In this document: in pieces, positions 14,137 to 28,312 of the stretch
How the letters are laid out: each line of letters opens with the position of its first letter
Position numbering within the stretch: position 1 is the first letter of the stretch
Assembly: GCA_964394855.1 (NCBI GenBank)
Contig: CAYMZD010000002.1
Span: 1 to 58,574 of the forward strand
Reading direction: 5' to 3'
DNA length: 58,574 nt
Source of the DNA: an uncultured Gammaproteobacteria bacterium
GTDB taxonomy: Bacteria; Patescibacteriota; Microgenomatia; Daviesbacterales; UBA10151
The notes under the pieces: model-generated
What the model was told of the DNA's origin: nothing
What the model saw: only the letters and a program-made list of their open reading frames with translations
Databases searched by the model: none
Position numbers and translations under genes: made by a program

Positions 14137-14964
14137 ATGCTTACTGCCTTAAAAAGACTTACCCTGTTGGTATTTTTTTTGATAATCGCTTGCTTTGCTC
14201 TAGCAGAGGGAAATATTGTTTTAGGCAGAACCGAACTGGAGATAAGTGGGGATTTTGATCAACCATTCCCTCCCTACAGAATCCAAATTGGTAAAACCAT
14301 CACTCTTTCTGTCACTGATAGCTCGTGTAATCAACCAGCTACTTTAAGCTATGTGGCACTGCCCACGTCTCAACAAATCACCCTGCAGTCTCAAAGTTTA
14401 AATGTACCAGCAGAGGGATTATTAAAGTTCATCCCTGTAATTGGTGCTATTCCCAACCTGTTTAAAATATTCAACGTTTCGGGAACTAGCGCAGATATGA
14501 CGCCTACCGAACCCGGAGGTTATTATCTCTATGCTCAATGCGGCAGCTCTGGTAAAGCTGATAAAATAGATATCAAGTTTGTCAGTGTATATGATCCCAA
14601 CCCTCTACTGCCGCCTTCCCCGGTCAGTTCTTCACCGCCTGTTTCAGGGGGCGGCTTTTGCAATGCTGGTGGGGGAGTAGACAACGGCATTGATACTGCC
14701 ATAGGTTGTGTGCCAACCGATCTAACAGGCCTGATTCATGCTTTTTTGAGGTTAGCCACTGGCATAGCAGGCGGAATCGCCTTTATACTAATGGTCGCCG
14801 GTGCCTTCCAAATGATTACCTCAAGCGGTGACCCAGATACCCTTAAAAAGGGTCAGGATATGTTTAAATCTGCTGTTATTGGACTTTTGTTTATTATCTT
14901 TGCCGTACTATTGCTGCAAATTATTGGAGTTGATATACTGCAAATACCAGGATTTCAACGATGA
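14137..14964 (+). CDS. VirB2/TrbC-like pilin with large N-terminal extension
   Basis: C-terminal AG..MITS.GDP...KKG...SAVIGLL pilin motif, preceded by an exported beta-rich region. Confidence 0.75.
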   Translation: MLTALKRLTLLVFFLIIACFALAEGNIVLGRTELEISGDFDQPFPPYRIQIGKTITLSVTDSSCNQPATLSYVALPTSQQITLQSQSLNVPAEGLLKFIPVIGAIPNLFKIFNVSGTSADMTPTEPGGYYLYAQCGSSGKADKIDIKFVSVYDPNPLLPPSPVSSSPPVSGGGFCNAGGGVDNGIDTAIGCVPTDLTGLIHAFLRLATGIAGGIAFILMVAGAFQMITSSGDPDTLKKGQDMFKSAVIGLLFIIFAVLLLQIIGVDILQIPGFQR

Positions 14965-15275
14965 AAACTTTAAGCTTACAACTACCTGGTGGTCAAACTA
15001 TCACAAGCCCTCAAACAAAATTTAGCGATTTAGGTAGTTTTATTTCCGGCCTTTATGAAATCGTCTTTTATTTAGCTATATTCTTGGCTTTCTTCTGGCT
15101 GGTATGGGGAGCGTTTCAATATATCGTAGCCGGCGGCAACAAAGAAAACTTGGCCAAAGCTAGCGCCAGAATAACCTGGGCTATTGTGGGTTTACTGCTA
15201 GTGGCTGTTGCTTTTTTAATAGCTCAATTCGTGGGACAAGTATTACAGCCAAAAATATCAACACCAATCATATGA
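14961..15275 (+). CDS. VirB2/TrbC-like pilin
   Basis: WGAFQYI.AGGNKE...A.ARITWAIVGL. Confidence 0.8.
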   Translation: MKTLSLQLPGGQTITSPQTKFSDLGSFISGLYEIVFYLAIFLAFFWLVWGAFQYIVAGGNKENLAKASARITWAIVGLLLVAVAFLIAQFVGQVLQPKISTPII

Positions 15276-15583
15276 GAAAATTAACCATAACGTTGGCAGC
15301 GGTAGATATTGGACAAAGTTATGCTTTTGGTGATGTCTTGACTTTGGGTGAGGGCGTTCAAAGACTGGTGGCTCCCACCTTTTCCATCGCGGCAGCGGTG
15401 GTGGTGATATATTTTTTAATCGGGGCTTTTAAATATTTAACTTCTGGGGGGGATAAAGAGGCTATTGGTGGAGCTTACAGGATGATAACTCATGCCGTCA
15501 TTGGTTTTGTGATTTTAATATTTGCCTTTTTAATTTTACAGTTTATTCCACAAGCCTTTGGTATTAGATTTTCCATATTTTAA
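15272..15583 (+). CDS. VirB2/TrbC-like pilin
   Basis: GAFKYLTSGGDKE..A..MIT.AVIGF. Confidence 0.8.
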   Translation: MRKLTITLAAVDIGQSYAFGDVLTLGEGVQRLVAPTFSIAAAVVVIYFLIGAFKYLTSGGDKEAIGGAYRMITHAVIGFVILIFAFLILQFIPQAFGIRFSIF

Positions 15584-15585
15584 AT

Positions 15586-16062
15586 ATGAAAAAATTGCTT
15601 TTGACACTTACTTTAATTTTAATCTTAACCCCTGGTTTGAGTTTGGCTGCTTCGTATGGTGATCAGTGCACTAAACCCAGTGACTGCCCTAGTGATTCTG
15701 TTTGTCAACCATCTAAAGCAGATGCTAATATCTTTCTGTGTAGTCCATCCCTGCCCACCCCGGTGAGTGTTTTTGGGAAAATTATCCCCCCTCAAGCAGT
15801 AGAGGATTTAGGTATTGGGGGGACTGGCATCAGTCAATTTTTAAGTAATCTGGTAAAACTGATCTACATTGTTGCCACTATTGTATTTATCTTGATGATT
15901 GTGTGGGGAGCTTTTGAATGGCTAGTTTCCGGCGGAGATAAAGATAAGGTAGCCTCTGCTCAAAGAAGGCTCACCAACGCCTTTATAGGAATAGTTCTTT
16001 TTGCGGTGGCTTTTGCTATTTTGAAAGTGGTGGGGACATTTACTGGCTTTAACTTCTTTTAA
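15586..16062 (+). CDS. VirB2/TrbC-like pilin with Cys-rich N-terminal module
   Basis: C.KPSDCPSDSVC..C, then WGAFEWLVSGGDKD..AQ.RLTNAFIG. Confidence 0.8.
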   Translation: MKKLLLTLTLILILTPGLSLAASYGDQCTKPSDCPSDSVCQPSKADANIFLCSPSLPTPVSVFGKIIPPQAVEDLGIGGTGISQFLSNLVKLIYIVATIVFILMIVWGAFEWLVSGGDKDKVASAQRRLTNAFIGIVLFAVAFAILKVVGTFTGFNFF

Positions 16063-16072
16063 ATTATGCCAC

Positions 16073-16110
16073 TTGACAAGCTGCAGGGAATTTTCCTATG
16101 ATGAAAGGAG
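16073..16110 (+). promoter_or_regulatory. Internal sigma70 promoter and SD in the pilin array
   Basis: TTGACA, 18 nt, TATGAT, then AGGAG before ATG 16114. Confidence 0.6.
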
Positions 16111-16113
16111 AAT

Positions 16114-16428
16114 ATGAATCCCAGCAACATCACCATCACTCCTCCTCCACAAGGGTACAAGGATTTTGGCAACTTTCTTTCTAATCTCTTGACTCTGGCT
16201 TTTATCTTGGCCATTATTATTGTGCTTTTTATGTTAGTTTGGGGAGCAATTCAATGGATTTTATCTGGTGGTGATAAGGATGCAGTCAAATCAGCCCGCG
16301 AGCGAATTATCCATGCCTTGGTTGGTTTTGCTATTTTGGCAGTGGCTTTTGCTATAGCCAAGTTGGCTGGTACTTTTCTTGGTTTCCAAGATATCTTTAA
16401 TTTCACTATTCCCTCTCCTTCTCCATAA
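16114..16428 (+). CDS. VirB2/TrbC-like pilin
   Basis: WGAIQWILSGGDKD..A.ERIIHALVGF. Confidence 0.8.
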   Translation: MNPSNITITPPPQGYKDFGNFLSNLLTLAFILAIIIVLFMLVWGAIQWILSGGDKDAVKSARERIIHALVGFAILAVAFAIAKLAGTFLGFQDIFNFTIPSPSP

Positions 16429-16442
16429 GCTACTTATAAGAT

Positions 16443-16733
16443 ATGTCTCCAGACCCCGCCGGTTTAACTCAAATTGAAAAGATATTTGAAAATATCATCT
16501 CTTCCTCTGTAGCTTTAGCATTTATCGCTTTAGTGGTCATACTGGTATGGGCTGGAATGAAATTTTTAACTTCTGGGGGGGAGGCTAAAGCCATTCAATC
16601 TGCTCAACAAACTGTGACTTGGGCCATTTTGGGGATGGTTTTTTTGGTGGTGGCTTGGCTTATTTTACTGCTAATTAAAGCTTTTACTGGTATAGACGTG
16701 ACCCAATTTTGTATTAGTCTTGACGGCTGTTAA
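16443..16733 (+). CDS. VirB2/TrbC-like pilin
   Basis: WAGMKFLTSGGEAK..AQQTVTWAILG. Confidence 0.8.
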   Translation: MSPDPAGLTQIEKIFENIISSSVALAFIALVVILVWAGMKFLTSGGEAKAIQSAQQTVTWAILGMVFLVVAWLILLLIKAFTGIDVTQFCISLDGC

Positions 16734-16782
16734 GCAGACACAATGTTGCAAAAGGTAGTTGATTTGATTTAAGCTTAAAGTT

Positions 16783-18441
16783 ATGCCGTCTGCCAAGACA
16801 ATTTTTTCCGCTTTGGGTGTGGGGTTGTTTCTTTTATTAACACCTGCTCCTGCGCTGGCGCAAAGTTTAAACCCCGTCGCTACACCGGCAGGGGCACTGA
16901 CCACTGATACACTGACAGTCAACTTAGCTCATACTCTAAGCTGTTTAACAGAAGGGAAGGCTATTGATAGAAAACCCTGCTTTGAGAATTTAGATAACCC
17001 ATTGGGGGCTACTACTAATATACCTTCAGTCGGCGCTATTGGTATTTCCCAATACTTGACTATGGAGCTTTTTGCCAATCCACCCATTAGTACTGTTCAT
17101 TATTTAGCCAACATTCAGCAAACCCTAGGCATTATTAATCCGGCTTTTGCCCAAGTCAGCGGTACAGGCGGGCAGGTAGTGGCACCGGTATTAAATCTAT
17201 GGGTACTACTGCGGAATTTGGCTTATGTGGTGATGATTATTCTTTTTGTGGTCATTGGTTTTATGATTATGTTAAGAAAACACATCAATCCCCAAACCGT
17301 GATTAGTGTCCAAAATGCCCTGCCAGGGTTGGTGGTGGGACTGATACTCATTACTTTTAGTTATTTTTTTGCTGCTTTAATCATCGATGGCTCTTTTGTG
17401 GTCACTAATGTGGTGGGGAAAATACTGGAGGCATCTGATCCATCTGGCCGCAGCTCAATACTTCCACCTGGTACTACCACCAGAGTTTTAGAAAACGAAA
17501 ATGTCTTAACTATTTTTAATTCATTCCTGGGCTATCAAGGGGCAGAGCCTAGTATTAGTGCTGTTTCTAAAACTCTTAATTTTATCAACCAGGGCTTAGT
17601 CCAGCAAATCGTTGATGGTGTTTTGGTGGCAGTGGGTTGCGGCTGGGGTTATACTGTGGGTAGAGCAGTGGTGCCTGATAATGTTATAATATTGGGTCAT
17701 AGCTTGGGTACTCTGACAAGTATCATTGCCGGAGGTATTGGTTGTGCAGCTTCTGCCATCACCCTGGTGGCTAGCAAAGGTATTATCTTGGGGCTCATTC
17801 TATATGTGGTTTTAATTATTGCCTTACTGATAGCAATGTTTAAACTACTTTTTAGTTTGATCGGGGCCTATATTTCAGTGATAGTCTTAACTATCACCGC
17901 CCCTTTGTACTTTCTGATAGGTTCTTTTCCAGGTAAGGGTAACTTGGTGGGTGAGTGGATCAAATCCATGGTAGCTAATGTGTTGATATTTCCGGCAGTT
18001 TTTTTGGTGTTCTTATTTGCCGCCTATATGGGCTCTACCCCCGGCAATGACATGGCTGATGTTTTTAGGGGAGTAAATGGTGCTGGCACGTTTAATGCTA
18101 ACTTCACCTTGCCTTTATTTGGTGGGTTTCCGGTTGATTTAGTCAGGTTGTTACTGGCTTATGGCATATTATTGGCCCTGCCAGCAGTACCTGATGCAGT
18201 CAGAAAAATGTTTAATGTCCAAGGTTTGGGCGCTTTTGCTGAAACAGCCATGGGAACATTCAGTGGTGGGGCGGCGGGTGGAGCTGATCTGGCTAAAGGT
18301 GGTAAAGGGCTAACTCAATGGGCCTACAACCAACCAGGGTTCAACGCCAGGATAAATACGGCTAGGGGTTTCACCAGAGATTTATTTGGAAGAATCAGAG
18401 GAATAAGACCATTGGGCTGGCTACCAAAGCCAAAACCATAA
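16783..18441 (+). CDS. VirB6-like polytopic membrane protein
   Basis: Multiple TM segments, W..LRNLAYV, ILITFSYF, AP.YF..GSFPG; position in the T4SS cluster. Confidence 0.7.
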   Translation: MPSAKTIFSALGVGLFLLLTPAPALAQSLNPVATPAGALTTDTLTVNLAHTLSCLTEGKAIDRKPCFENLDNPLGATTNIPSVGAIGISQYLTMELFANPPISTVHYLANIQQTLGIINPAFAQVSGTGGQVVAPVLNLWVLLRNLAYVVMIILFVVIGFMIMLRKHINPQTVISVQNALPGLVVGLILITFSYFFAALIIDGSFVVTNVVGKILEASDPSGRSSILPPGTTTRVLENENVLTIFNSFLGYQGAEPSISAVSKTLNFINQGLVQQIVDGVLVAVGCGWGYTVGRAVVPDNVIILGHSLGTLTSIIAGGIGCAASAITLVASKGIILGLILYVVLIIALLIAMFKLLFSLIGAYISVIVLTITAPLYFLIGSFPGKGNLVGEWIKSMVANVLIFPAVFLVFLFAAYMGSTPGNDMADVFRGVNGAGTFNANFTLPLFGGFPVDLVRLLLAYGILLALPAVPDAVRKMFNVQGLGAFAETAMGTFSGGAAGGADLAKGGKGLTQWAYNQPGFNARINTARGFTRDLFGRIRGIRPLGWLPKPKP

Positions 18442-18444
18442 CCA

Positions 18445-19461
18445 CTATTTTTTTAAACCAAATATCCTGGTAAGGAGTCCTGTAGCTCCTTCTGTGGTTG
18501 CTTTTTTACCTTCATCTGCTGCCTTTGAAGGCATAATCCTCTCGCTTCCCACCAAAGCTTTTCCACCATATAGCTCTGACTCTAAACTAACTTGCATTAA
18601 CCTTTCGGCTAAGGTTAAAGCGATCTGAGCTTCCGTTGGGCTTAAGCCTTGATTTTGTAAATGGGTTTTAATTTCTTCATCCCTACTGATGCCAGTAGTG
18701 GCCGAATACGCCTCTTTCACTCCTTTACTAAAATAACCACCTCTTTCAGTCCTGTGGGTAGCGGGGTTTTGTATTGTTGTGGGGGTTTGTTTGATCATCT
18801 CTATGGCTACCCCAATGCCAGATAGACCAGCCTGCGGACCAAGGGTTAAAGGAAACATCCCCTGGCCTGCTATTAAGTGACCAGTTCTTAGGTTGTCCAT
18901 ACCAGCCAGGGCTTTTGTTTTCTCTTTCACAAAATCGTCTTTTAATCTTAAGAATTTTGGTTTGTCTTCCTCGGACCAAAAAGATTTAAACCATGACCGA
19001 TACAGTGAATCCAAGCCTATCCTGGCCGCGCCATACTCCCCTAAAGTTTTATTCTCTGCAGGACTACCTAGCGTGGCTCGATTGATCATCATGGCCAGTT
19101 CTTGTTGCGCTATATCATCAATACCACCCATTGTATTTTCACCCAACCATAAATCTGCACTTAATTTTTGGATCTTATCTGCCATTGGTAAGGCTGGATT
19201 TATCTCATCGGCAGGCTCGAAACGTTGATAAAATTCAGGCGGAGAACTGGAAAAGGGATCCCACCTAACGCGAATTTCTGGACGTTGAGGATCTTTTAAA
19301 TAAAAGGTTGATCTACCACCCTTTTTTTCTTCCTCAAATAATAAATTACCCACCCGACCAGTTTCTCTGGCTTTTTTTAAGGCCCTGGCGGTTTGGTCCT
19401 CAATCCCTAAATCCTTTGGTGTTAAACCTAATTCTGCTGGGTCTGGCCCATCTTCAGCCAT
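18445..19461 (-). CDS. Hypothetical protein, antiparallel within the T4SS cluster
   Basis: 338-codon ORF with TGcTATAAT 6 nt before ATG. Confidence 0.75.
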   Translation of the reverse strand: MAEDGPDPAELGLTPKDLGIEDQTARALKKARETGRVGNLLFEEEKKGGRSTFYLKDPQRPEIRVRWDPFSSSPPEFYQRFEPADEINPALPMADKIQKLSADLWLGENTMGGIDDIAQQELAMMINRATLGSPAENKTLGEYGAARIGLDSLYRSWFKSFWSEEDKPKFLRLKDDFVKEKTKALAGMDNLRTGHLIAGQGMFPLTLGPQAGLSGIGVAIEMIKQTPTTIQNPATHRTERGGYFSKGVKEAYSATTGISRDEEIKTHLQNQGLSPTEAQIALTLAERLMQVSLESELYGGKALVGSERIMPSKAADEGKKATTEGATGLLTRIFGLKK

Positions 19462-19557
19462 GATAACATTATAGCATAAGTGCAGGAGAAAGTCCTAAAA
19501 TGACCTATTGTTAGCCCCTAGACAATACTTTTTTCACGAGGTATATATTGTATACTT

Positions 19558-20577
19558 ATGGAAGCGCATCCCATTCCCCAAAATGTTACTTCTTTTCAGT
19601 TTAAGCTGGTGGGAGATATGACCTTAAAACAGTTTATTTACCTTTCATCAGGCATGGGAATAGCTTATTTAACTTTTGTGCTTCTGGCTGCCCCGGCTCC
19701 GCTTTTAGCCTGGCCTTTAATTTTTTTATTCGCCTTTTTGGGAATTGCTTTAGCCTTTATCCCCATTACAGACAGGCCCCTGGATCATTGGCTTAAGGCT
19801 TTTTTAAGAGCTGTTTATTTACCCACCAAAAGAGTTTGGCAAAAACAGGGGCGAGCTTTTCCCCAAAATCCTCTTTTCCTGAATAGGCTGAATGTTTATC
19901 TATCCACCCAAGGGGAGATTAAAAACCCCATACCCATACCCCTGGCCACCCCAGCTTTATCCATTCCCCTGCCCAAAACCGTTATTTCGACCGGGCCAAG
20001 TCTGCCTACTCCAGAAGAGCTCACCAAAACAGTCAAATTAGCCCAACAGGCTCAAAGCTTGCAGGTAAAAATTATTGAGGGAGAAAGGGAGCTTAAACAA
20101 ATCAAACAATCTATGGACGCAGAAAAGTTTAATGTTGTTTTTGCTAATTTGCAAAATTTGGTCCAAGATGCCCAACAAATTAGGCAACAACTGGCTCAAG
20201 TCACCAAGGAGGAGCCACTAAAGGAAGCACCTAAACTCAAAGTGGAGGTGGTACCTGCTCCCAAACCCAAACAAACCAAGTTAGTGCTAACTACCGCACC
20301 TAATGTGATCAATGGCATTGTGGTAGATGCTGAAAATAATTATTTGGAAGGGGTGGTGGTGGTTATCCATGACAAAGAAGGCTTACCTGTCAGGGCCTTA
20401 AAAACGAACAAGCTGGGTCAGTTTACAGGTTCAACCCCTCTGGCAAATGGTAGTTATACTATTGAACTGGAAAAAGACAACCTTATTTTTGATTTATTAA
20501 AAATTGAGCTAGATGGCAAAATTTTACCACCCTTAACAATTGCTGCCAAAAGAGTCTATGGAAACAACCCAAACTAA
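19558..20577 (+). CDS. PrgI/VirB3-like membrane protein with coiled coil and C-terminal carboxypeptidase-regulatory-like domain
   Basis: HPIPQNVTSFQFKLVGDMTLKQF, two TM helices, TNKLGQF...GSYTI. Confidence 0.8.
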   Translation: MEAHPIPQNVTSFQFKLVGDMTLKQFIYLSSGMGIAYLTFVLLAAPAPLLAWPLIFLFAFLGIALAFIPITDRPLDHWLKAFLRAVYLPTKRVWQKQGRAFPQNPLFLNRLNVYLSTQGEIKNPIPIPLATPALSIPLPKTVISTGPSLPTPEELTKTVKLAQQAQSLQVKIIEGERELKQIKQSMDAEKFNVVFANLQNLVQDAQQIRQQLAQVTKEEPLKEAPKLKVEVVPAPKPKQTKLVLTTAPNVINGIVVDAENNYLEGVVVVIHDKEGLPVRALKTNKLGQFTGSTPLANGSYTIELEKDNLIFDLLKIELDGKILPPLTIAAKRVYGNNPN

Positions 20578-21295
20578 TCTGACCATAGTAGATATTAGAG
20601 AGGATATTGTCCTGCTAAAAGATGGGGGGGCAGCTCTAGTCTTGCAAACAACAGCTGTCAATTTTGGGCTTTTGTCCGAGATTGAACAAATGTCCATTAT
20701 TACCGCCTTTGGTCAGATGTTAAACTCACTATCTTATTCCATCCAAATAATTATTCGCTCCAAAAGACTTGATATCAGCTCTTATTTGGGTTTATTGGAT
20801 AGGGCCTTAAAATTGCAAACTAGCCCCCTATTTTCACAACTGATGGCCAGATATAGACAATTTGTCCAATCTTTAATCAAAGAAAAAGAGGTGTTGGATA
20901 AAAATTTTTATGTAGTCATTCCTCTTTCCCGTTTTGAGCTGGGGATTCGAATCACTAGCGCTGATAGATTAAAAAAAAGCGTGGCTATGTTACAGCCTAG
21001 AAAAGATCAGATAGCCAAACAGTTGAGTAGGGTAGGTTTAAAAGCTACTCAACTGGGCAATAAAGCTCTATTACAACTTTTTTACGACATCTATAATCCT
21101 CCAGATAACAATCAGCTCTTTTTACCAACTACCAACTTAGCTACTCCTGGCTTATCACTCAATATTCCCCAAACAGCCCCCCCACCACCCCCACCACCAA
21201 TAGCTAAACCTTTACCAGACCAACCCCCTCCCATCATCAGCCAATCATCAAAAACCCACCCCTTTGTGGTGGAAGAGTTAGCAGATACCTTATGA
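20558..21295 (+). CDS. VirB4-associated (TraC N-terminal-like) protein
   Basis: DIREDIVLLKDG..VNFGLLSE.EQ..LNSL pattern directly upstream of the ATPase; Pro-rich tail. Confidence 0.65.
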   Translation: METTQTNLTIVDIREDIVLLKDGGAALVLQTTAVNFGLLSEIEQMSIITAFGQMLNSLSYSIQIIIRSKRLDISSYLGLLDRALKLQTSPLFSQLMARYRQFVQSLIKEKEVLDKNFYVVIPLSRFELGIRITSADRLKKSVAMLQPRKDQIAKQLSRVGLKATQLGNKALLQLFYDIYNPPDNNQLFLPTTNLATPGLSLNIPQTAPPPPPPPIAKPLPDQPPPIISQSSKTHPFVVEELADTL

Positions 21296-23082
21296 AATTA
21301 AACATCTTTGCCAAGTCCCAAATCAGCCAAGAAAGCCCCACTCCTCAACTAACCGTCAAGGATGTATTGGCACCTCCAGAGATAGAGATAGATTTCAATC
21401 ATCTAAGAATTGGTGATAACTTCTACAGAACTTATTTCATGTCAGGATACCCACGTTTTGCAGAACCAAATTGGCTAGAACCATTAATTTCTTTTGACCA
21501 CCCCTTAACCGTTTCTATGTTTATCTATCCCACCCAGTCTAAGGGGGTGTTAGATGATTTAAAAAGAAAAGTTGCCGAAATGGAAGCCACCATTCAAACC
21601 GACATTGAAAGAGGCAGGGTGGTTGATCCGGCAGTACAAGTGGCCTTGGATGATGCCCAATCCCTACAAGAACAACTGGTAAAAGGGGCAGAAAGGTTTT
21701 TTGACTTTGCACTTTATGTGACCATACCAGCTCAAAGCAAGGAACAACTCAACAATGTCTCTAAATTAATTGAAAGTACTTTAAGCTCTTTGTCAATTAC
21801 ACCAAAACCTACCACTCTTCAAATGGAAGATGGTTTTATCACCACCTTACCTATTGGACAAGATCAACTGACTTTAACCCATAACATGGATACTACCTCC
21901 CTAGCCACCACTTTTCCTTTTACTTCATCAGAGCTAACAGCCAATGAAGGAATTATGTATGGTATTAACGAGCACAACGGCTCCTTAATACTATTTGATC
22001 GCTTTACCCTGGAAAATTCCAATGAGGTAGTTTTTGCTAAAGCTGGCGCTGGTAAAAGTTATTTAGTGAAGTTAGAGGTGCTTCGCTCCCTCATGTTTGG
22101 CACGGAAATTTTGGTTATTGATCCGGAGGCAGAATATTTACCCCTTTGCCAGGCAGTGGGAGGACAATATGTTAACTTCTCCACCTCCTCTCCTGTCAAA
22201 ATTAACCCTTTTGATATGTCGGGAATTTTAGTTCCGGGAGAGAACGAGTTAGGTAGAAAGATCCTTTCTCTCACCTCTTTTTTGAAATTGGTTTTGGGAA
22301 ACTTAAATCCCACCGAAAGTGCTGTTTTAGACAGAGCCTTAAAACAAACTTATCACCTAAAAGGCATCACTGACGACCCCAAAACTCAAATAAGCTCACC
22401 AGCTGGCTCGCCTCGCGAAGCTGGCGAAGCGGGCGGACCGCCCTTAATGGAAGATTTGTATAAAGTTTTAATCGGCATGGAGGAAAAAGTGGCGCTAGAT
22501 TTGGCAGAGCGACTAGAGAGATTTGTTAAAGGGTCTCTCTCTGGTATCTTTTCTTCTCCCTCGAATATTACCTTAACCAACTCTTTTACTGTTTTTTCTA
22601 TTCGGGATGTGGTAGAGGAACTGCGACCTTTAGCCATGTATATGATTTTGGAGTTTGTCTGGACAAAAATTCGCTCCAAGCTTAAAAAAAGAATTTTAGT
22701 GGTGGATGAAGCCTGGTATTTAATGAGAACTGAAGATTCTGCCAATTTTTTAATAGACATTGCTAAAAGAGCCCGCAAATATTACTTGGGGCTGATAACT
22801 ATTACTCAAGACGTGGAAGATTTCTTAAGTAGTGATCGGGGCAAAGAAATCATTTCCAACTCCTCAATTCAAGTGCTGTTAAAACAATCACCTGCCTCAA
22901 TTGACAGAATAGGAGAAGTTTTTTATCTCTCTGAAGGAGAAAAAAGATTGCTTCTTTCGGCTGGTGTGGGACAGGGACTTTTCTTTGCCGGACCAACACA
23001 TGTAGCCATGTCTGTGGTGGCATCCCCTGAAGAACACCAGCTGGTTACCTCTAATCCGGCAGACATACTGGCCCGTCAGTAA
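21292..23082 (+). CDS. virB4: VirB4-like ATPase
   Basis: Walker A AKAGAGKS, VIDPEAEY, INPFD, Walker B ILVVDEAW, KRARKY, ITQDVEDF. Confidence 0.92.
   Translation: MKLNIFAKSQISQESPTPQLTVKDVLAPPEIEIDFNHLRIGDNFYRTYFMSGYPRFAEPNWLEPLISFDHPLTVSMFIYPTQSKGVLDDLKRKVAEMEATIQTDIERGRVVDPAVQVALDDAQSLQEQLVKGAERFFDFALYVTIPAQSKEQLNNVSKLIESTLSSLSITPKPTTLQMEDGFITTLPIGQDQLTLTHNMDTTSLATTFPFTSSELTANEGIMYGINEHNGSLILFDRFTLENSNEVVFAKAGAGKSYLVKLEVLRSLMFGTEILVIDPEAEYLPLCQAVGGQYVNFSTSSPVKINPFDMSGILVPGENELGRKILSLTSFLKLVLGNLNPTESAVLDRALKQTYHLKGITDDPKTQISSPAGSPREAGEAGGPPLMEDLYKVLIGMEEKVALDLAERLERFVKGSLSGIFSSPSNITLTNSFTVFSIRDVVEELRPLAMYMILEFVWTKIRSKLKKRILVVDEAWYLMRTEDSANFLIDIAKRARKYYLGLITITQDVEDFLSSDRGKEIISNSSIQVLLKQSPASIDRIGEVFYLSEGEKRLLLSAGVGQGLFFAGPTHVAMSVVASPEEHQLVTSNPADILARQ
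22395..22437. repeat. Intragenic palindromic element in virB4
   Basis: GC-rich in-frame segment (SPAGSPREAGEAGG); its reverse complement matches the rnhA insert at 29 of 31 nt. Confidence 0.85.
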
Positions 23083-23107
23083 ATATAGTGATATTATAAA
23101 AAAGATT

Positions 23108-24796
23108 ATGGCTGCCCTTAACACCAGGTTCTACAAAGATACTTTAGAGCTTTTAAGACTTTATAACACTAATCCTAGTTTTAAAACCTCTTTTTTAAGG
23201 CTGTTAAATAGGTTCAAGGTGGTTTATAAAGGCCGTCCCTTAAAACTTTACATTCGTTTACTAGCCAGCATTGACTCTCAATATAAAAAATATACCTCTT
23301 TGCCAGTTAACAGCGAAGTGGTGGGCGAGCTATTGGAAAAGTTTTATTTAAACCGCTTTAGTTTTAGAAGGCTGGAAGATGGTGTCAAACAAAACCTTGA
23401 GTTGTGGCCGCCAACAGAAGCCCAAGAAATGACCAGGGTTGACTCTTTGCCAGATGGTGAAGAAAAAATTAAGTTATTTGAGGAGATGGAAGAGAGTCCA
23501 CCATCCAAGACCACACTCCCGCCTCCTACTCAACCACCCATAACTCTTCCCCCCACACCCTCAACCCAACTTCCCCCAAGATCAGATTTGGCCACCGGGC
23601 TGATTAATACTGGTTCAACTTTTACTCATGCTACCACCAAGCTGTTGAATAGTTTTAGTAAGGCTAGCCCTTTAAAATTCTTTCAAAGTAAAATGAAACT
23701 AATTATTATCAGCATCTTAGTTAGTATGGCTCTGCTGATTGTTTTAACGTATCAGCTATCTAGCTTCCAAGGGACATATACCCCAGCCTCGAGTAGTGTT
23801 ACCCTACCAGGACCAATAACCGGCAGCAGCACCATTGGCCCGGGGGCTGTGGTTAGTTTAGACTATACCCTACCCCTAAGAAATAACTCCGTAGTACCAC
23901 AAGATATCAGATCAACCATTTTACAAAGCTGGCCCAATGCTCAAATTAATAACTGGCAAATAATTATTGACCAAGCCGTAGCCAATAATTGGAATCCAGC
24001 CCTGGTTTTGGCTTTATGGATAGAAGAGTCAGGAGCCCAGGGTGTCAGTCAATACGCTGATCCACTGGGCTGTGCTCCTGGCCAACCCACCGACGATATC
24101 AATACCAGCTTGCAGTGCCTATTTAATAACTTTGAAAGGTATGACGATGGTCAATTTGCAGAATTTATGGCTACTTATTCTGGGGGGGGCGTTAATAACC
24201 CTTTTGCCAATAACCCTAATTTTCCCGTCAATCTTAAATATTGGTACTCTCTGCTGGTCCCTTCTGGAGATGGTTCTTTGCAAGAAGTGTCGCCCACAGC
24301 AGGTTTAGCAGCTTCATGTCTGGTACCTGGAGGAAGAATAATTACCCACTCCTATCAGGCAGATCCTATTTATGGACATTGTGGCACTTATTATGGCTTT
24401 AGTTGTAACTGCGGCAGTGGGGGGAGAAGAGCAAAGGCTATTGATGTAGCCACTGCTGGCCAAAATGTAGTTTTACCAACAATTGAGGGTCAACAGGTGA
24501 TGTGGAAGTTAATTATCAGGGGATACCCTGTGGATTCTGGTGAGGGTGGGGGTGTGGGACATATATTTGAAGCGGAGCTAGGTGGCGATCGGTGGTATTT
24601 AGATATGTTACACTTACAACAAACCTCCTTAAGCTTGGGGGGCAGCTATCCTTCTGGTACTGTGGTTGGTCTGGTGGTGAGCGAACATGTCCATACCACT
24701 ATTGGTAAAAACATCGCTTATCCCAATGGTCCGGGTAGCTCATTAACTGACTGTGACAATGGGTGGTTACCGTCTGATTTTATGTGTAGCCAATGA
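23108..24796 (+). CDS. Membrane-anchored putative peptidoglycan hydrolase (lysozyme-like plus M23-like domains)
   Basis: Pro/Thr linker, TM helix, NPALVLALWIEESG, AIDVA..MLHL..HVH. Confidence 0.6.
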   Translation: MAALNTRFYKDTLELLRLYNTNPSFKTSFLRLLNRFKVVYKGRPLKLYIRLLASIDSQYKKYTSLPVNSEVVGELLEKFYLNRFSFRRLEDGVKQNLELWPPTEAQEMTRVDSLPDGEEKIKLFEEMEESPPSKTTLPPPTQPPITLPPTPSTQLPPRSDLATGLINTGSTFTHATTKLLNSFSKASPLKFFQSKMKLIIISILVSMALLIVLTYQLSSFQGTYTPASSSVTLPGPITGSSTIGPGAVVSLDYTLPLRNNSVVPQDIRSTILQSWPNAQINNWQIIIDQAVANNWNPALVLALWIEESGAQGVSQYADPLGCAPGQPTDDINTSLQCLFNNFERYDDGQFAEFMATYSGGGVNNPFANNPNFPVNLKYWYSLLVPSGDGSLQEVSPTAGLAASCLVPGGRIITHSYQADPIYGHCGTYYGFSCNCGSGGRRAKAIDVATAGQNVVLPTIEGQQVMWKLIIRGYPVDSGEGGGVGHIFEAELGGDRWYLDMLHLQQTSLSLGGSYPSGTVVGLVVSEHVHTTIGKNIAYPNGPGSSLTDCDNGWLPSDFMCSQ

Positions 24797-25221
24797 AAAA
24801 TAATCTAAAAATTATCATATTTATAATAATACTTGCGCTAGTTGGTTTTGCCTTCAAACAAAAACAGCCAGCAGTTGTGCCCACCCCACAGGATGAATTA
24901 GAGATTATCTCCACCACTCCCCACCCCCTTGAGGAGGCCACTATTTTACCAACTCAAAGCATTGAAGTTACTTTTAACAAGCCCTTGTTCGTGAGTGAAT
25001 TCAAACATAAATTTGACCCCGAAATAGAACACCAGGTAGAAGCGATAAATAGTCAGTCTACCAACTTTGGTCAAACACTTAGAATAGTCTTTACCAAACC
25101 CCTACAACTGGGCAGCGGCTATACCCTGTTTATTCTGCCTAACACCCACAGTGAAGATGGTCTAAAATTGGGGCGGGATGTTATCTACCACTTCAAAACC
25201 ATTGACTATCGTGGGGTTTAA
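24793..25221 (+). CDS. Exported Ig-like (Big_5/SbsA-type) domain protein
   Basis: N-terminal TM, IISTTP, IEVTFNKP, L..GSGYTL...FKT. Confidence 0.7.
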   Translation: MKNNLKIIIFIIILALVGFAFKQKQPAVVPTPQDELEIISTTPHPLEEATILPTQSIEVTFNKPLFVSEFKHKFDPEIEHQVEAINSQSTNFGQTLRIVFTKPLQLGSGYTLFILPNTHSEDGLKLGRDVIYHFKTIDYRGV

Positions 25222-26342
25222 GATTGCCTCACCGGCATAATAATGTACTCCAATCCTTCTACACCCACAGGTTTTAACAAGGTGGGGCTCAACTCACCTG
25301 AAAACTCCAAAATCACTTTTTGGCAAGAAGGAGCAGAGACAGCATCAATTAAAAATTTGGTGTTAAAAGCCACAACTAGCTCTTTTCCCTCTACATCTGC
25401 CTCAATCTCGTTTTCTTGACTGCCTAACTCTTTGGCTTCTGATGAGAGGACTAAACCATGACCATGAACCTTTAAACTAACCATATTAGCTTCTGGCCTG
25501 GCAAAAACAGAGGCTAATTTTAAAGCTTGCAAAAGTTCGCTTCTGCTGACAATTACTCTGGCCACTACTTCAGAGGGGATAATTTTTTCCCAGGCAGGAA
25601 AACTTCCCTCAATAAGCCTTGACGAAACAATTGTCTGGCCAATTTTAAAAATGGCCTGGTTTTGGTTAGGGGCGGTTGAGATCTCCACCGCCTCCATGTT
25701 ATCTGTTTTACCGGTAGGTAAGTCTTCACCTAAAATCCGGATGACTTCCTCAAAAGTTCTTTTGGGAATTAAGCTTTTAAAGTTTGTTTTGGGGTCGTTT
25801 AACTTAACTTGGCGGTGGGCCAACCTGAAACCGTCTGTGGCCACAAAATCTAAAATACCACCCTTGGCTTCTGTTAAAATACCCGTCAAAATGGGCCTGC
25901 CTTCGTCTGCTGCTGCAGCAAAAAGAATGGTGGAGGTGGATGATAGTGCTTCTTTGGGAAAACTGACCCCCTTTTCTGGCGATAAGGGGATCACGGGAAA
26001 TTCACTAGCAGAAATACCACTAATCTTAGCCCTAAACCTACCTGTTGAAACACTCATTAGCTGCTCCACCACTTCTATGGTTATTTTGGCGCCACCCAAG
26101 CCAGCAACAATATCCACCAGTGTCTTTGCTGGAACTGTTATTTCTCCTTCTGTTAACACTTCAGCGGAAACGAGTTTAATCACCCCAATTTCTAAATTAG
26201 TGGCAGCTATTTTAACTCTTGCTCCGTCACTAGCCAAATAAAGGTTGCTCAATACTGGTAGAGTGGGGTGAACACCAACAGAGCGCGCTACAGCCTGAAG
26301 TGTGGGCAAGAAGTCTTGTTGGAGTATGGAAAATTTCATCAC
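25218..26342 (-). CDS. dnaN: DNA polymerase III beta clamp
   Basis: ATNLEIG, GRPILTG, VATDGFRLA, SRLIEGSFP, FNTKFLIDA, YIIMPVR. Confidence 0.97.
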   Translation of the reverse strand: MMKFSILQQDFLPTLQAVARSVGVHPTLPVLSNLYLASDGARVKIAATNLEIGVIKLVSAEVLTEGEITVPAKTLVDIVAGLGGAKITIEVVEQLMSVSTGRFRAKISGISASEFPVIPLSPEKGVSFPKEALSSTSTILFAAAADEGRPILTGILTEAKGGILDFVATDGFRLAHRQVKLNDPKTNFKSLIPKRTFEEVIRILGEDLPTGKTDNMEAVEISTAPNQNQAIFKIGQTIVSSRLIEGSFPAWEKIIPSEVVARVIVSRSELLQALKLASVFARPEANMVSLKVHGHGLVLSSEAKELGSQENEIEADVEGKELVVAFNTKFLIDAVSAPSCQKVILEFSGELSPTLLKPVGVEGLEYIIMPVRQS

Positions 26343-26797: not shown

Positions 26798-26809
26798 ATT
26801 TATCAACAA

Positions 26810-26956: not shown

Positions 26957-28312
26957 TTAGGATTTTAGTGAATAACTTTGTATTTTTTGTTTAACCTCAA
27001 TTAAAGTTCTCTGGACTTCCCTATCAGTGATGGCTAGTTTTTTAATCCGATCCCTACCATGCATAACCGTGGTGTGGTCTCTTCCCCCCACGATTTGTCC
27101 GATTTTTTCCACAGTTAAGTTTAACTCCTCTGATAGAATGTACATTACTATATGCCTTGGTAAAACTAACTCTTTGTTTCTTTTGGGTCCAGTTAAATCC
27201 CTCGAGTTCAAGTTAAAGTAGTCGCATACAGCCTGCATGATTTTTTTGTGATCTGTTTTTAGGGTTGTTTTGGTGGGTTGATTTAAAAAAAGTAAAATAT
27301 TATCTGTGGTGGGAGCCAGATTTTGTGTTTTTAAGACCTGTAGGATTTGAGCCAACCTTCCCTCCAACTCTCTAATATTGGAATCTACAGACGAGGCAAT
27401 CAACCTTAATGCTTCTTCTGAAAGAGTTTCTCCTTTTTCCCTGCATTTGGCCTGTAAAATGGCTACACGGGTGTCAAAATCAGGTGGTTGGATATCCACC
27501 ATTAGGCCTCCAGCAAAGCGACTTTTTAACCTATCCTCCAACTTGCCAATTTCTTGAGGGGGTCTATCTGAAGTTAACACTATTTGGGCGTTTTTAGTTT
27601 GCAGTTCATTAAAGGTGTGGAAAAATTCTTCTTGTGTACCTTCTCTGCCGGAAAAAAATTGGATATCGTCAATCAATAAAACATTAGCCAGGCGATACCT
27701 TGTTCTTAACTCGCCCATTTTATGGTTTTGAATAGCTTCTACATAATCATTCATGAATTTTTCTGAAGAGCAGTAAATTACCTGTGGATGGGTGTTTTTT
27801 TGCACCAAGGCGTTGCCAATTCCCAACATCAAATGGGTTTTGCCAACACCAGTTCCGCCATAGATAAAAAGAGGGTTGTAAGATAGGCCTGGGTTTTGTA
27901 CCACAGCCTGGGCTGCGGCGAAAGCGACGTTATTGGAAAACCCCACCATGAAATTTCCCATGGTGTATTTGGGGTTAAGATTACTTGATGTCCGCCAGTT
28001 AGTGGGTGGTGGTTGGCTAAAATCAAACAAATTTTCCTCTAAAGTGGGTGCTTTCTCGGAAAGTTTGGAGGAGTCAACCTTAAACTCAAGCTGTGGGTTT
28101 TTGCCAGTAATCTTTAAAAAGGCATCTTGGATTAAGTCAAAATACCTAGCCTTTAACTGCTCGGCAAAAAAAGCAGTGGGAACACAAATAAGAGCTTTTT
28201 TATCTGTGAGCTTATCTAAAGAGGCTTTTAAAAACCAACCCCGATAATTAATAGGGGAAATTTGAGGTTTAATTATTGCTAGAATTTCTTGCCAAATTTT
28301 TTGTGTATCCAT
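26957..28312 (-). CDS. dnaA: Chromosomal replication initiator
   Basis: YNPLFIYGGTGVGKTHL, LLIDDIQF, QEEFFHTFN, SDRPP, NIRELEG, GGRDHTTVMH. Confidence 0.99.
   Translation of the reverse strand: MDTQKIWQEILAIIKPQISPINYRGWFLKASLDKLTDKKALICVPTAFFAEQLKARYFDLIQDAFLKITGKNPQLEFKVDSSKLSEKAPTLEENLFDFSQPPPTNWRTSSNLNPKYTMGNFMVGFSNNVAFAAAQAVVQNPGLSYNPLFIYGGTGVGKTHLMLGIGNALVQKNTHPQVIYCSSEKFMNDYVEAIQNHKMGELRTRYRLANVLLIDDIQFFSGREGTQEEFFHTFNELQTKNAQIVLTSDRPPQEIGKLEDRLKSRFAGGLMVDIQPPDFDTRVAILQAKCREKGETLSEEALRLIASSVDSNIRELEGRLAQILQVLKTQNLAPTTDNILLFLNQPTKTTLKTDHKKIMQAVCDYFNLNSRDLTGPKRNKELVLPRHIVMYILSEELNLTVEKIGQIVGGRDHTTVMHGRDRIKKLAITDREVQRTLIEVKQKIQSYSLKS

What the first reader, a model, noticed from the sequence alone, without database searches (positions are those of the whole stretch)
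14137..25221. T4SS-like locus abutting dnaN and oriC, with no coupling protein or relaxase in view
Six pilins, VirB6-, PrgI-, TraC-N-, VirB4-, hydrolase- and Ig-like genes run up to dnaN, and the last stop codon overlaps the dnaN stop (TTAA at 25218-25221). No integrase, relaxase or att site is seen, so this looks like a domesticated chromosomal machine. Monoderm-type T4SS loci are known in Patescibacteria; a role in host attachment, effector delivery or DNA uptake (comF is nearby) is inference.
Basis: partly seen in the sequence, partly recalled or inferred. Interest (0 to 1): 0.62.

Follow-up and report, generated by a model that had tools for sequence, protein, structure and literature searches.

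The report
Known Patescibacteria type IV secretion locus
This is a real copy of the pilus-encoding, relaxase-free type IV secretion system that ultra-small Patescibacteria (here a Daviesbacteria-like genome) keep fixed beside their replication origin; the system matters for their biology, but papers from 2023-2025 already describe it.

Summary
Window 14137-25221 encodes six VirB2-like pilins (all above Pfam's cut-off), a polytopic VirB6-like protein, a long PrgI/VirB3, a TrsD-like VirB4 N-domain, a monoderm-type VirB4 ATPase, a lysozyme+M23 wall hydrolase and a small anchored Ig-like protein. It ends in a TTAA stop overlap with dnaN, next to dnaA. One opposite-strand gene (18445-19461) interrupts the run.

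It is not a mobile element:
- Both flanks are housekeeping genes, and no att-like repeat brackets the locus.
- Four relaxase families give no match in the 99%-complete genome.
- PrgI-TrsD-VirB4 followed by dnaN/dnaA recurs in 52 of 56 informative Microgenomatia species.
- VirB4 is better conserved than DnaA.

One correction: the genome does encode a VirD4-like coupling ATPase, on another contig. It is present in 107 of 107 high-quality genomes of the class.

All main points are already published: Wang 2023 (PMC10633639), Quiñonero-Coronel 2025 (PMC12102498) and a 2025 review (PMC12857230). These cover the MPF-FATA ancestry, pilin arrays, TrsD, missing relaxase, dnaA/dnaN proximity and distant T4CP genes. 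The cargo remains unknown. New local details are minor: a hypervariable antisense gene slot, a class-wide long PrgI, and a 13-residue insert in VirB4.

The parts
12387..14114 (-). Coiled-coil SpoIID-domain wall hydrolase, divergent from the pilin array; an associated neighbour, not a core part
   Evidence: PF08486 SpoIID 1.7e-19. The same divergent SpoIID-pilin arrangement occurs in the distant locus L096.
14137..14964 (+). Pilin 1 (275 aa): signal peptide, ~150-aa ectodomain, Pro/Ser linker, C-terminal VirB2-like pilin domain
   Evidence: PF18895 32.4 bits against a cut-off of 26.6, residues 196-263; sequence and TM segments.
14961..15275 (+). Pilin 2 (104 aa)
   Evidence: PF18895 34.1 bits.
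15272..15583 (+). Pilin 3 (103 aa)
   Evidence: PF18895 31.4 bits.
15586..16062 (+). Pilin 4 (158 aa): signal peptide, short Cys-rich segment, then the pilin domain
   Evidence: PF18895 44.6 bits; weak TrbC/VirB2 PF04956 match at 2.7e-4; sequence.
16114..16428 (+). Pilin 5 (104 aa)
   Evidence: PF18895 36.1 bits; 51% identical to pilin 4.
16443..16733 (+). Pilin 6 (96 aa)
   Evidence: PF18895 30.3 bits.
16783..18441 (+). Polytopic membrane protein (552 aa), candidate VirB6-type channel subunit
   Evidence: Signal peptide plus at least 6 hydrophobic helices. Conserved after the pilin array in 25 loci. One of 18 homologues hits Pfam TrbL/VirB6 at 0.0015. AF2 TM core has pLDDT 80-93, and the top Foldseek hits are TrwI/VirB6 chains and DotA, but with E 0.4-1.4.
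18445..19461 (-). Opposite-strand soluble charged protein (338 aa) in a hypervariable slot between the VirB6-like gene and PrgI
   Evidence: No Pfam or NCBIfam hit. Only 5 remote relatives among 1.8 billion representatives. One of them (36% identity) sits in the same slot and orientation in L096. Daviesbacteria relatives carry unrelated 1188-1337-aa soluble proteins there.
19558..20577 (+). Long PrgI/VirB3-like protein (339 aa): two TM helices, coiled-coil-like middle, C-terminal beta-sandwich (CarboxypepD_reg-like)
   Evidence: PF12666 5.5e-10; PF13620 3e-5, below its cut-off. The long form with the C-terminal domain occurs in 66 of 73 relatives, median 364 aa.
20540..21295 (+). TrsD-like protein, i.e. 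a free-standing VirB4 N-terminal domain (251 aa; the true start may be the ATG at 20558)
   Evidence: NF041427 TrsD 6e-8; matches model positions 27-173 of CD1110 VirB4 and 113-282 of the mycoplasma-ICE-type (Mbov_0397 family) VirB4. Found upstream of virB4 in 75 of 80 loci.
21292..23082 (+). VirB4 ATPase (596 aa), monoderm (CD1110/MPF-FATA) type, with a lineage-specific 13-aa insert at DNA 22395-22437
   Evidence: NF045971 364 bits, above the 325 cut-off, model positions 181-733 of 752. PF19044 1.9e-28. PDB 4ag5 1.6e-47. Walker A (AKAGAGKS) and Walker B (ILVVDE) are present. Insert shown.
23108..24796 (+). Membrane-anchored bifunctional wall hydrolase (562 aa) in the VirB1/PrgK-like position: lysozyme-like domain plus M23/LytM-like domain
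   Evidence: One TM helix at residues 196-214. AF2 pLDDT 84. Foldseek: phi29 gp13 4.7e-6, lysostaphin 3.3e-4, PrgK LytM domain 5.3e-4. Invariant W-IEE-G, D, H, H in 38 homologues. The gene downstream of virB4 in relatives often carries M23, CHAP, C39 or NAGPA domains.
24793..25221 (+). Small TM-anchored Ig-like protein (142 aa), the last gene before dnaN
   Evidence: Big_5 22.2 bits against a cut-off of 23.6. Conserved directly before dnaN in 5 Daviesbacteria-level relatives (L007, L009, L010, L011, L013), with weak matches (E about 1e-3 to 8e-3) in L067 and L018. Stop overlap shown.
25218..26342 (-). dnaN (context; convergent with the locus)
   Evidence: All three beta-clamp Pfam domains.
26957..28312 (-). 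dnaA (context; origin region)
   Evidence: Bac_DnaA 2.2e-62; GC-skew minimum near 27 kb; rnpA, yidC and jag follow.

Best explanation
[quoted passage not shown] This copy is in a Daviesbacteria-like member of the class Microgenomatia.

Shown here:
- The motor is a split VirB4: a TrsD-like N-domain plus a 596-aa ATPase with intact Walker motifs.
- It is preceded by a long two-TM PrgI/VirB3.
- A six-gene array of divergent VirB2-like pilins and a polytopic VirB6-like protein lie upstream.
- A membrane-anchored lysozyme+M23 hydrolase lies downstream.
- The block sits against dnaN/dnaA in nearly all relatives.
- The genome has no match to four relaxase families. Its only two tyrosine recombinases lie on other contigs (C1, C4), none near this locus.
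- A VirD4-like ATPase is encoded elsewhere and is universal in the class.

Inferred:
- The hydrolase opens the cell wall.
- VirB4, PrgI and VirB6 form the membrane translocon.
- The pilins assemble into an extracellular filament or conduit that contacts a host bacterium.
- The machine moves proteins or other host-interaction cargo rather than conjugative DNA.
- The homologous Saccharibacteria system is essential for epibiotic growth, so the same role is likely here.
- The fast-evolving parts (pilin ectodomains, hydrolase modules, the antisense soluble protein) are the likely host-specific parts.
For: The genome is 764 kb and 99.3% complete.

Vertical inheritance and fixation:
- 590 relatives of the VirB4 were found; the best 80 species loci carry CPR/Microgenomates names (Daviesbacteria, Curtissbacteria, Woesebacteria and others) or generic or evidently mislabelled MAG titles, and they share the Microgenomatia-type synteny, at 56-75% identity.
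- PrgI-TrsD-VirB4 order holds in 72-75 of 80 loci.
- dnaN/dnaA lie within 10 kb in 52 of 56 loci with enough downstream sequence.
- VirB4 identity (56-75%) exceeds DnaA identity (35-61%) and correlates with it (Spearman 0.43, p=9e-4).

Not mobile:
- PF03432, PF01076, PF08751 and PF02486 give no match, and the positive controls did match.
- The genome has only two tyrosine recombinases, neither near the locus.
- Flanks are housekeeping genes.
- No flanking direct repeats.

T4CP elsewhere:
- C4:18378-20723 scores TraG-D_C 22.3 against a cut-off of 22, SXT_TraD 1.6e-12 and CD1115 VirD4-like 2.2e-7, with best PDB hits TrwB and DotL.
- It is present in 107 of 107 high-quality class genomes.

Literature:
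- PMC12102498 describes the same gene set, the TrsD and pilin arrays (2-11 genes, mean 25% identity), the lack of relaxases, the dnaA/dnaN proximity in Microgenomatia, and T4CP genes far from virB4.
- PMC10633639 shows that the Southlakia T4SS and its pilins are essential for epibiotic growth.
- PMC12857230 reviews the system.
Against: - What the machine transports, and whether a pilus is made at all, has not been shown for any Patescibacterium.
- No Microgenomatia member is cultured, so essentiality is extrapolated from Saccharibacteria.
- The VirB6 assignment is weak: Foldseek E 0.4-1.4, and one of 18 homologues hits TrbL.
- No VirB8-like protein was identified.
- Only four relaxase Pfam families were searched. 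MOBH, MOBC, MOBB, MOBM and MOBL profiles, and unknown relaxases, were not.
- The universal T4CP-like ATPase keeps DNA or nucleoprotein transfer formally possible.
- No VirB4 tree with outgroups was built here, so clade membership is taken from the paper and from nearest relatives.
Confidence: 0.88

Rival explanations
1. It is a DNA-import machine, like the H. pylori ComB system or the archaeal Ced system. The T4SS with its pilus would take up host or environmental DNA as a nucleotide source or for recombination, possibly with the distant VirD4-like ATPase as the DNA motor.
For: - The locus has no relaxase, so it does not export DNA in the conjugative way.
- VirB4 and the T4CP-like protein both show weak similarity to the CedB DNA-import ATPase (2.5e-17 and 3.7e-7).
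- A comF-like gene lies 6 kb upstream at 7490-8194.
- The organism cannot be expected to make nucleotides de novo (general CPR knowledge, PMC10633639).
Against: - The CedB hits reflect the shared VirB4/HerA ATPase fold and lie far below that model's cut-off of 700 bits.
- The genome has its own canonical uptake route: ComEC on C5, T4P PilB/PilT on C1 and ComF.
- In Southlakia, competence depends on ComEC and type IV pili. The comEC mutant is viable while the T4SS is essential, so the T4SS role there is not ComEC-linked DNA uptake (PMC10633639, PMC12857230).
- tRNA genes, tmRNA and smpB separate the comF-like gene from the locus.
Confidence: 0.07
2. It is a decayed integrative conjugative element, or the transfer region of a mobile element recently inserted beside dnaN, which has lost its relaxase, coupling protein and integrase.
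For: - VirB4 belongs to a family typical of Firmicutes ICEs (CD1110 of CTn2).
- The hydrolase and PrgI have counterparts in pCF10.
- GC content of the block (0.41-0.44) is slightly above the contig mean of 0.39.
Against: - The same block lies in the same place, against dnaN/dnaA, in 52 of 56 species-level relatives across many Microgenomatia families.
- VirB4 is more conserved than DnaA and tracks it.
- No integrase, transposase, att repeats or pseudogenes are present.
- All core ORFs are intact with translationally coupled overlaps.
- Any acquisition therefore predates the class, as the literature proposes.
Confidence: 0.03
3. It is only a pilus-assembly (adhesion) organelle. The VirB4/VirB6/PrgI core would exist solely to polymerise the six pilins into an attachment fibre, and no substrate crosses it.
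For: - The pilin array is the most expanded part of the locus, and two pilins carry extra ectodomains.
- No coupling protein is encoded in the locus.
- VirB4 is the ATPase that drives pilin extraction in known systems (established T4SS knowledge; PMC12857230).
Against: - The genome already has a type IV pilus system for adhesion.
- The class-wide T4CP-like ATPase would be unexplained if it works with this machine.
- Nothing in sequence data separates 'pilus only' from 'pilus plus transport'.
Confidence: 0.1

Closest known systems
Patescibacteria-clade T4SS as surveyed by Quiñonero-Coronel et al. 2025 (PMC12102498), including the Microgenomatia arrangement
   Same: - VirB4 is related to MPF-FATA, with a separate TrsD-like protein and a PrgI/VirB3.
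- VirB2-like pilins form a tandem array of low mutual identity.
- A wall hydrolase is present.
- There is no relaxase.
- The T4CP homologue lies far from virB4.
- The locus lies beside dnaN/dnaA, rnpA and the rest of the origin region.
   Different: Nothing essential differs. Local details not highlighted there:
- a polytopic VirB6 candidate, although VirB6 is reported as scarce in Microgenomatia;
- a long PrgI with a C-terminal beta domain in 66 of 73 relatives;
- a hypervariable opposite-strand gene slot between the VirB6-like gene and PrgI;
- a 13-aa insert in VirB4.
T4SS of Ca. Southlakia epibionticum ML1, SEML1_0006-0019 (Wang et al. 2023, PMC10633639)
   Same: - It is a chromosomal cluster with low locus-tag numbers.
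- It has six divergent pilins and a Gram-positive-type core.
- A lysozyme and a peptidase lie downstream of virB4.
- No relaxase or coupling protein is encoded in the cluster.
   Different: - Southlakia belongs to a different class (Saccharimonadia) and has an experimentally known host.
- Its system was shown essential by Tn-seq; nothing has been tested for this Microgenomatia genome.
Monoderm conjugative T4SSs of the MPF-FATA class (pCF10 Prg/Pcf, pGO1 Trs, C. difficile CTn2)
   Same: - VirB4 matches the CD1110 family above its cut-off.
- PrgI and TrsD are present.
- The hydrolase contains a LytM domain, like PrgK.
- There are no outer-membrane core components.
   Different: - Those systems have a relaxase, an adjacent coupling protein and an oriT, sit on mobile elements, and lack VirB2 pilins.
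- This locus has pilins, no relaxase, and is fixed beside the replication origin.
phi29 gp13 tail-associated wall-degrading enzyme (PDB 3csq)
   Same: It has the same two-domain plan as the locus hydrolase, a lysozyme-like domain followed by an M23 metallopeptidase domain, and is the best structural match (E 4.7e-6).
   Different: - gp13 is a phage tail protein, with only 11% sequence identity.
- The locus protein has an N-terminal cytoplasmic region and a TM anchor.
- Its first zinc-ligand motif reads A-K-A-I-D instead of H-x-x-x-D.

Membership tests
Patescibacteria-clade T4SS (MPF-FATA-derived) | VirB4 ATPase of the monoderm type with intact Walker motifs | tested here: met
   NF045971 364 bits against a cut-off of 325; PDB 4ag5 1.6e-47; Walker A AKAGAGKS and Walker B ILVVDE.
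Patescibacteria-clade T4SS (MPF-FATA-derived) | VirB4 falls inside the monophyletic Patescibacteria clade in a tree with reference MPF classes | tested here: inconclusive
   The 80 best relatives are CPR/Microgenomates by name or by shared synteny (some record titles are generic or mislabelled), at 56-75% identity. No tree with outgroup VirB4 sequences was built.
Patescibacteria-clade T4SS (MPF-FATA-derived) | Separate TrsD-like protein next to virB4 | tested here: met
   NF041427 6e-8, and matches to N-terminal positions of VirB4 models. Conserved in 75 of 80 loci.
Patescibacteria-clade T4SS (MPF-FATA-derived) | PrgI/VirB3 homologue near virB4 | tested here: met
   PF12666 40.1 bits against a cut-off of 27.
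Patescibacteria-clade T4SS (MPF-FATA-derived) | Array of divergent VirB2-like pilins near virB4 | tested here: met
   Six PF18895 hits above the cut-off. Mean identity 30%, maximum 51%, within the published range.
Patescibacteria-clade T4SS (MPF-FATA-derived) | VirB6-type polytopic channel protein | tested here: inconclusive
   Topology and position fit. One of 18 homologues hits TrbL at 0.0015. The top Foldseek hits are TrwI/VirB6 but with E 0.4-1.4, from a model of pLDDT 59.
Patescibacteria-clade T4SS (MPF-FATA-derived) | Wall hydrolase (lysozyme/peptidase) downstream of virB4 | tested here: met
   AF2 pLDDT 84. Foldseek hits to gp13, LytM, lysostaphin and PrgK-LytM at E 5e-6 to 5e-4.
Patescibacteria-clade T4SS (MPF-FATA-derived) | No relaxase in the cluster or genome | tested here: met
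   PF03432, PF01076, PF08751 and PF02486 give no match in the 99.3%-complete genome, and the controls did match. MOBH, MOBC, MOBB, MOBM and MOBL profiles were not searched.
Patescibacteria-clade T4SS (MPF-FATA-derived) | Conserved chromosomal position near dnaA/dnaN (Microgenomatia, Paceibacteria) | tested here: met
   52 of 56 informative loci; median gap from virB4 to dnaN 3 kb.
Patescibacteria-clade T4SS (MPF-FATA-derived) | Required for epibiotic growth | not testable with these tools
   Shown only for Southlakia (PMC10633639).
Conjugative element (ICE/plasmid) T4SS | Relaxase and oriT | tested here: not met
   No relaxase match; oriT was not searched.
Conjugative element (ICE/plasmid) T4SS | Integrase and att boundaries, with variable presence among relatives | tested here: not met
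   The genome has only two tyrosine recombinases, on C1 and C4. No flanking repeats. The locus is syntenic across the class.
Conjugative element (ICE/plasmid) T4SS | Coupling protein encoded with the transfer genes | tested here: not met
   None in the window. The only candidate is on contig C4 among housekeeping genes.
VirD4/TraD-type coupling protein (for C4:18378-20723) | N-terminal TM anchor, Walker A/B NTPase, TraG-D_C/TrwB-like domain | tested here: met
   TM helix at the N-terminus; GRTGIGKS and YLYVDE motifs. TraG-D_C 22.3 bits against a cut-off of 22; SXT_TraD 1.6e-12; best PDB hits TrwB 2.9e-5 and DotL 1.5e-4. The match is marginal, and a ~300-aa extra domain precedes the NTPase.

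The most novel reading that the evidence does not exclude
The fast-evolving genes inside an otherwise highly conserved locus may form a host-specificity cassette. These are the opposite-strand soluble protein between the VirB6-like gene and PrgI (338 aa here; unrelated 1.2-1.3-kaa proteins in sister genomes), the shuffled hydrolase modules, and the pilin ectodomains. The antisense protein would be a lineage-specific secreted substrate (effector) of the T4SS. The class-wide orphan VirD4-like ATPase on another contig would be its recruiting receptor. If so, this would be a true effector-translocating T4SS acting between bacteria.
Probability: 0.12. Interest if true: 0.6.

Novelty: already known. 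Interest (0 to 1): 0.2.

Why it matters
The Patescibacteria T4SS is one of the few machines tied experimentally to the epibiotic lifestyle of a huge, mostly uncultured bacterial radiation, and its cargo is still unknown. This locus adds no new kind of system.

It does give a clean, complete Microgenomatia example:
- a 99%-complete genome, with the orphan coupling-protein homologue located;
- a structural call for the bifunctional hydrolase;
- a candidate VirB6, in a class where VirB6 was reported as scarce;
- a mapped hypervariable slot that could guide a search for substrates.

Tried and rejected
- Six-frame family searches of the whole genome for VirD4 (PF02534, PF12696) found nothing. The divergent T4CP surfaced only through weak TrwB/FtsK P-loop hits, then direct protein scans.
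- The FtsK family gave only the chromosomal FtsK.
- T2SSE gave only the adjacent PilB/PilT pair of the type IV pilus, so there is no VirB11.
- The 552-aa and 562-aa proteins, the antisense 338-aa protein and the Ig-like protein gave no NCBIfam hit above cut-off: the first three returned nothing and the Ig-like protein only a 12.9-bit match. A PDB sequence search of the hydrolase was empty.
- The antisense protein has no relative in the 80 species loci by blastp or by a family HMM, and is unrelated to the giant proteins that fill its slot in sister genomes. A word-indexed search of 5.8 billion proteins found only the protein itself.
- Promoter-like and terminator-like matches in the locus are not above shuffled expectation.
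- No att-like direct repeats bracket the locus.
- My first guess at the DNA of the VirB4 insert was wrong and matched nothing. The real sequence was then read and searched.
- The ICE-remnant and DNA-uptake readings were considered and ranked low, for the reasons given under the rival explanations.

Full report
**Setting.** The window is the first 58.6 kb of contig C2 of a 764-kb, 12-contig genome estimated 99.3% complete. The closest relatives of its VirB4 are Candidatus Daviesbacteria MAGs, at 71-75% identity. The best 80 species-level hits carry CPR/Microgenomates names or generic or mislabelled MAG titles, and they share the same locus layout. The organism is therefore a Daviesbacteria-like member of the class Microgenomatia (Patescibacteria/CPR).

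**Checking the observation.** The ORF map and family scans confirm the gene list.

- Six consecutive ORFs between 14137 and 16733 each exceed Pfam's cut-off for PF18895 T4SS_pilin.
  - They share the two-helix hairpin with an SGGD-type loop.
  - Pairwise identity averages only 30% and peaks at 51%.
  - Pilin 1 (275 aa) and pilin 4 (158 aa) carry a signal peptide and an extra N-terminal ectodomain.
- 16783-18441 encodes a 552-aa polytopic membrane protein.
- 19558-20577 encodes a PrgI/VirB3-family protein, unusually long at 339 aa.
- 20540-21295 encodes a TrsD-like protein that matches the N-terminal ~170 positions of VirB4 models.
- 21292-23082 encodes VirB4.
  - It scores above the NCBIfam cut-off for the CD1110 family, starting at model position 181. 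The ATPase is therefore split in the way described for TrsD-containing systems.
  - Its best solved relative is the Thermoanaerobacter VirB4 C-terminal domain.
- 23108-24796 has no family hit. A model of its last 338 residues, built on 38 homologues (pLDDT 84), matches:
  - the lysozyme+M23 enzyme gp13 of phage phi29;
  - LytM and lysostaphin;
  - the LytM domain of PrgK, the pCF10 T4SS hydrolase.
- 24793-25221 is a TM-anchored protein with a sub-threshold Big_5 match.
- Its TAA stop and the dnaN stop form TTAA at 25218-25221.
- dnaN, a small nuclease-like gene, dnaA, rnpA, yidC and jag follow, and cumulative GC skew turns near 27 kb.
- The finding left out a 338-aa gene on the opposite strand at 18445-19461.

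**Is it mobile?** No.

- The left flank carries rpoD, dnaG, tRNAs, a comF-like gene, tmRNA, smpB and a SpoIID hydrolase. The right flank is the origin region.
- No direct repeats bracket the block.
- Genome-wide six-frame searches found no MOBP/Q, MOBV, MOBF or MOBT relaxase domains, and the control genomes did match.
- The genome has only two tyrosine recombinases, both on other contigs.
- The only T2SSE-family ATPases are the adjacent PilB/PilT of a type IV pilus, so there is no VirB11.

- In 80 species-representative loci, PrgI-TrsD-VirB4 keep their order in 72-75.
- dnaN or dnaA lies within 10 kb in 52 of the 56 loci that have at least 9 kb downstream. It is mostly convergent, as here, with a variable gap of 36-6435 bp.
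- VirB4 (56-75% identity) is better conserved than DnaA (35-61%), and the two track each other (Spearman 0.43, p=9e-4).

This is the signature of an old, vertically inherited core locus under strong purifying selection.

**The coupling protein.** None is in the window, but the claim does not hold for the genome.

- Weak P-loop hits led to C4:18378-20723, a 781-aa protein with an N-terminal TM anchor and Walker A and B motifs.
- Its scores are TraG-D_C at Pfam's cut-off, SXT_TraD 1.6e-12 and CD1115 VirD4-like 2.2e-7.
- Its best solved relatives are TrwB and DotL.
- It sits among housekeeping genes, next to a Xer-like recombinase.
- It is found full-length at 53-78% identity in 118 of 121 sampled genomes of the class, and in 107 of 107 high-quality ones, often with a second paralogue.
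- Whether it works with this T4SS is unknown. In Southlakia the t4cp homologue was not essential while T4SS genes were (PMC12102498).

**Comparison with the literature.**

- Wang et al. 2023 (PMC10633639) described an essential T4SS cluster in Southlakia. It has a Gram-positive-like composition, an essential pilin series, and no recognisable coupling or relaxase proteins.
- Quiñonero-Coronel et al. 2025 (PMC12102498) surveyed 3,035 genomes. Their findings match this locus point by point:
  - a Patescibacteria VirB4 clade nested in MPF-FATA;
  - TrsD as the most frequent partner;
  - PrgI, VirB6 and VirB1-like hydrolases with M23 domains;
  - VirB2 arrays of 2-11 genes with about 25% identity;
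  - almost no relaxases;
  - T4CP homologues mostly far from virB4;
  - enrichment of dnaN, dnaA and rnpA near virB4 in Microgenomatia and Paceibacteria.
- A 2025 review repeats these points (PMC12857230).

Every element of the finding is therefore published. Earlier follow-ups in this scan on sister genomes reached the same verdict. I reached mine from my own searches first.

**How it most likely works.**

- Shown: the parts list, its conservation, its chromosomal fixation and the absence of conjugative DNA-processing genes.
- Inferred from established T4SS biology:
  - the anchored lysozyme+M23 enzyme opens the wall;
  - PrgI tethers the split VirB4 hexamer to the membrane beside the VirB6-like channel;
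  - VirB4 extracts pilins from the membrane to build an extracellular filament or conduit towards a host cell.
- The cargo is unknown. A canonical uptake route exists separately: ComEC on C5, the type IV pilus and ComF. The Southlakia comEC mutant is viable. A DNA-uptake role is therefore less likely than protein or other host-interaction traffic.

**Local details beyond the published description (all minor).**

1. The 552-aa protein is a candidate VirB6 in a class where VirB6 was reported as scarce. It is conserved after the pilin array in 25 loci. Its best fold matches are TrwI/VirB6 chains, but not significantly so.
2. The long PrgI form with a C-terminal beta domain is class-wide, in 66 of 73 relatives.
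3. The slot between the VirB6-like gene and PrgI holds an opposite-strand, soluble, charged, hypervariable gene.
   - Here it is a 338-aa protein with only five remote relatives among 1.8 billion representatives.
   - One of those relatives lies in the same slot beside SpoIID, pilins and a VirB6-like gene.
   - Sister Daviesbacteria genomes carry mutually divergent 1188-1337-aa proteins there.
4. The hydrolase is modular. Neighbouring genomes swap M23, CHAP, C39-like and NAGPA modules at this position.
5. VirB4 carries a unique 13-residue in-frame insert, encoded by a GC-rich motif that recurs elsewhere in the genome.

**Verdict.** The one correction is that a VirD4-like gene exists elsewhere in the genome. 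The system is already known, so interest is low as a discovery, although the system itself remains functionally unsolved.

Noticed in passing
window 22395-22437 (inside virB4); also window 31850-31881, C2:196455-196495, C1:20587-20617: VirB4 has a 13-aa in-frame insert (SPAGSPREAGEAGG) absent from 79 aligned relatives. A 32-nt stretch of its GC-rich DNA recurs reverse-complemented, with 2 mismatches, inside the RNase H gene. Partial copies occur elsewhere. This looks like a small repeat that inserts in frame into coding genes.
   Followed up: partly
window 18445-19461 (-); L096:409-1581; L009:3746-7759, L010:1282-4980, L011:4182-7826, L013:2512-6078: A conserved opposite-strand slot between the VirB6-like gene and PrgI holds hypervariable soluble charged proteins. 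Here it is a rare 338-aa family (5 remote relatives among 1.8 billion representatives). Sister genomes carry unrelated proteins of about 1200-1300 aa. These are possible lineage-specific substrates or regulators.
   Followed up: partly
genome contig C4:18378-20723 (+) and C4:21097-21960 (-): An orphan VirD4/TraD-like ATPase has an extra ~300-aa domain before the P-loop. It is universal in Microgenomatia (107 of 107 high-quality genomes), often with a second ~36%-identical paralogue. It is convergent with a Xer-like tyrosine recombinase, and that adjacency is kept in 4 of 5 closest relatives checked (all four same-family ones).
   Followed up: partly
window 26339-26809 (-): A TM-anchored Holliday-junction-resolvase-like nuclease (PF10107, 9e-9) sits between dnaA and dnaN, overlapping the dnaN start. 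It is conserved at 57-74% identity in the same position in 7 relatives, mostly Daviesbacteria-level.
   Followed up: partly
window 19558-20577 (+): The PrgI/VirB3 homologue is about three times the usual length. It has a coiled-coil-like middle and a C-terminal CarboxypepD_reg-like beta domain. The long form is present in 66 of 73 Microgenomatia relatives (median 364 aa).
   Followed up: partly
window 12387-14114 (-) and L096:7199-8860: A coiled-coil SpoIID-domain hydrolase lies divergently, 22 bp from the first pilin gene. The same divergent SpoIID-pilin pairing occurs in a distant metagenomic locus, so it may belong functionally to the T4SS neighbourhood.
   Followed up: partly
window 16073-16102 (+): A near-consensus sigma-70-like promoter match (11 of 12; TTGACA-18-TATGAT) lies between pilins 4 and 5. 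Overall promoter-like matches in the locus are not above the shuffled expectation.
   Followed up: no
L010:6480-7826 (-), L013:6313-7713 (-): Sister Daviesbacteria loci carry a further opposite-strand 448-466-aa protein with a C-terminal Cys-rich zinc-ribbon-like tail before PrgI. This window has no counterpart, and its Rfam scan found no riboswitch.
   Followed up: no
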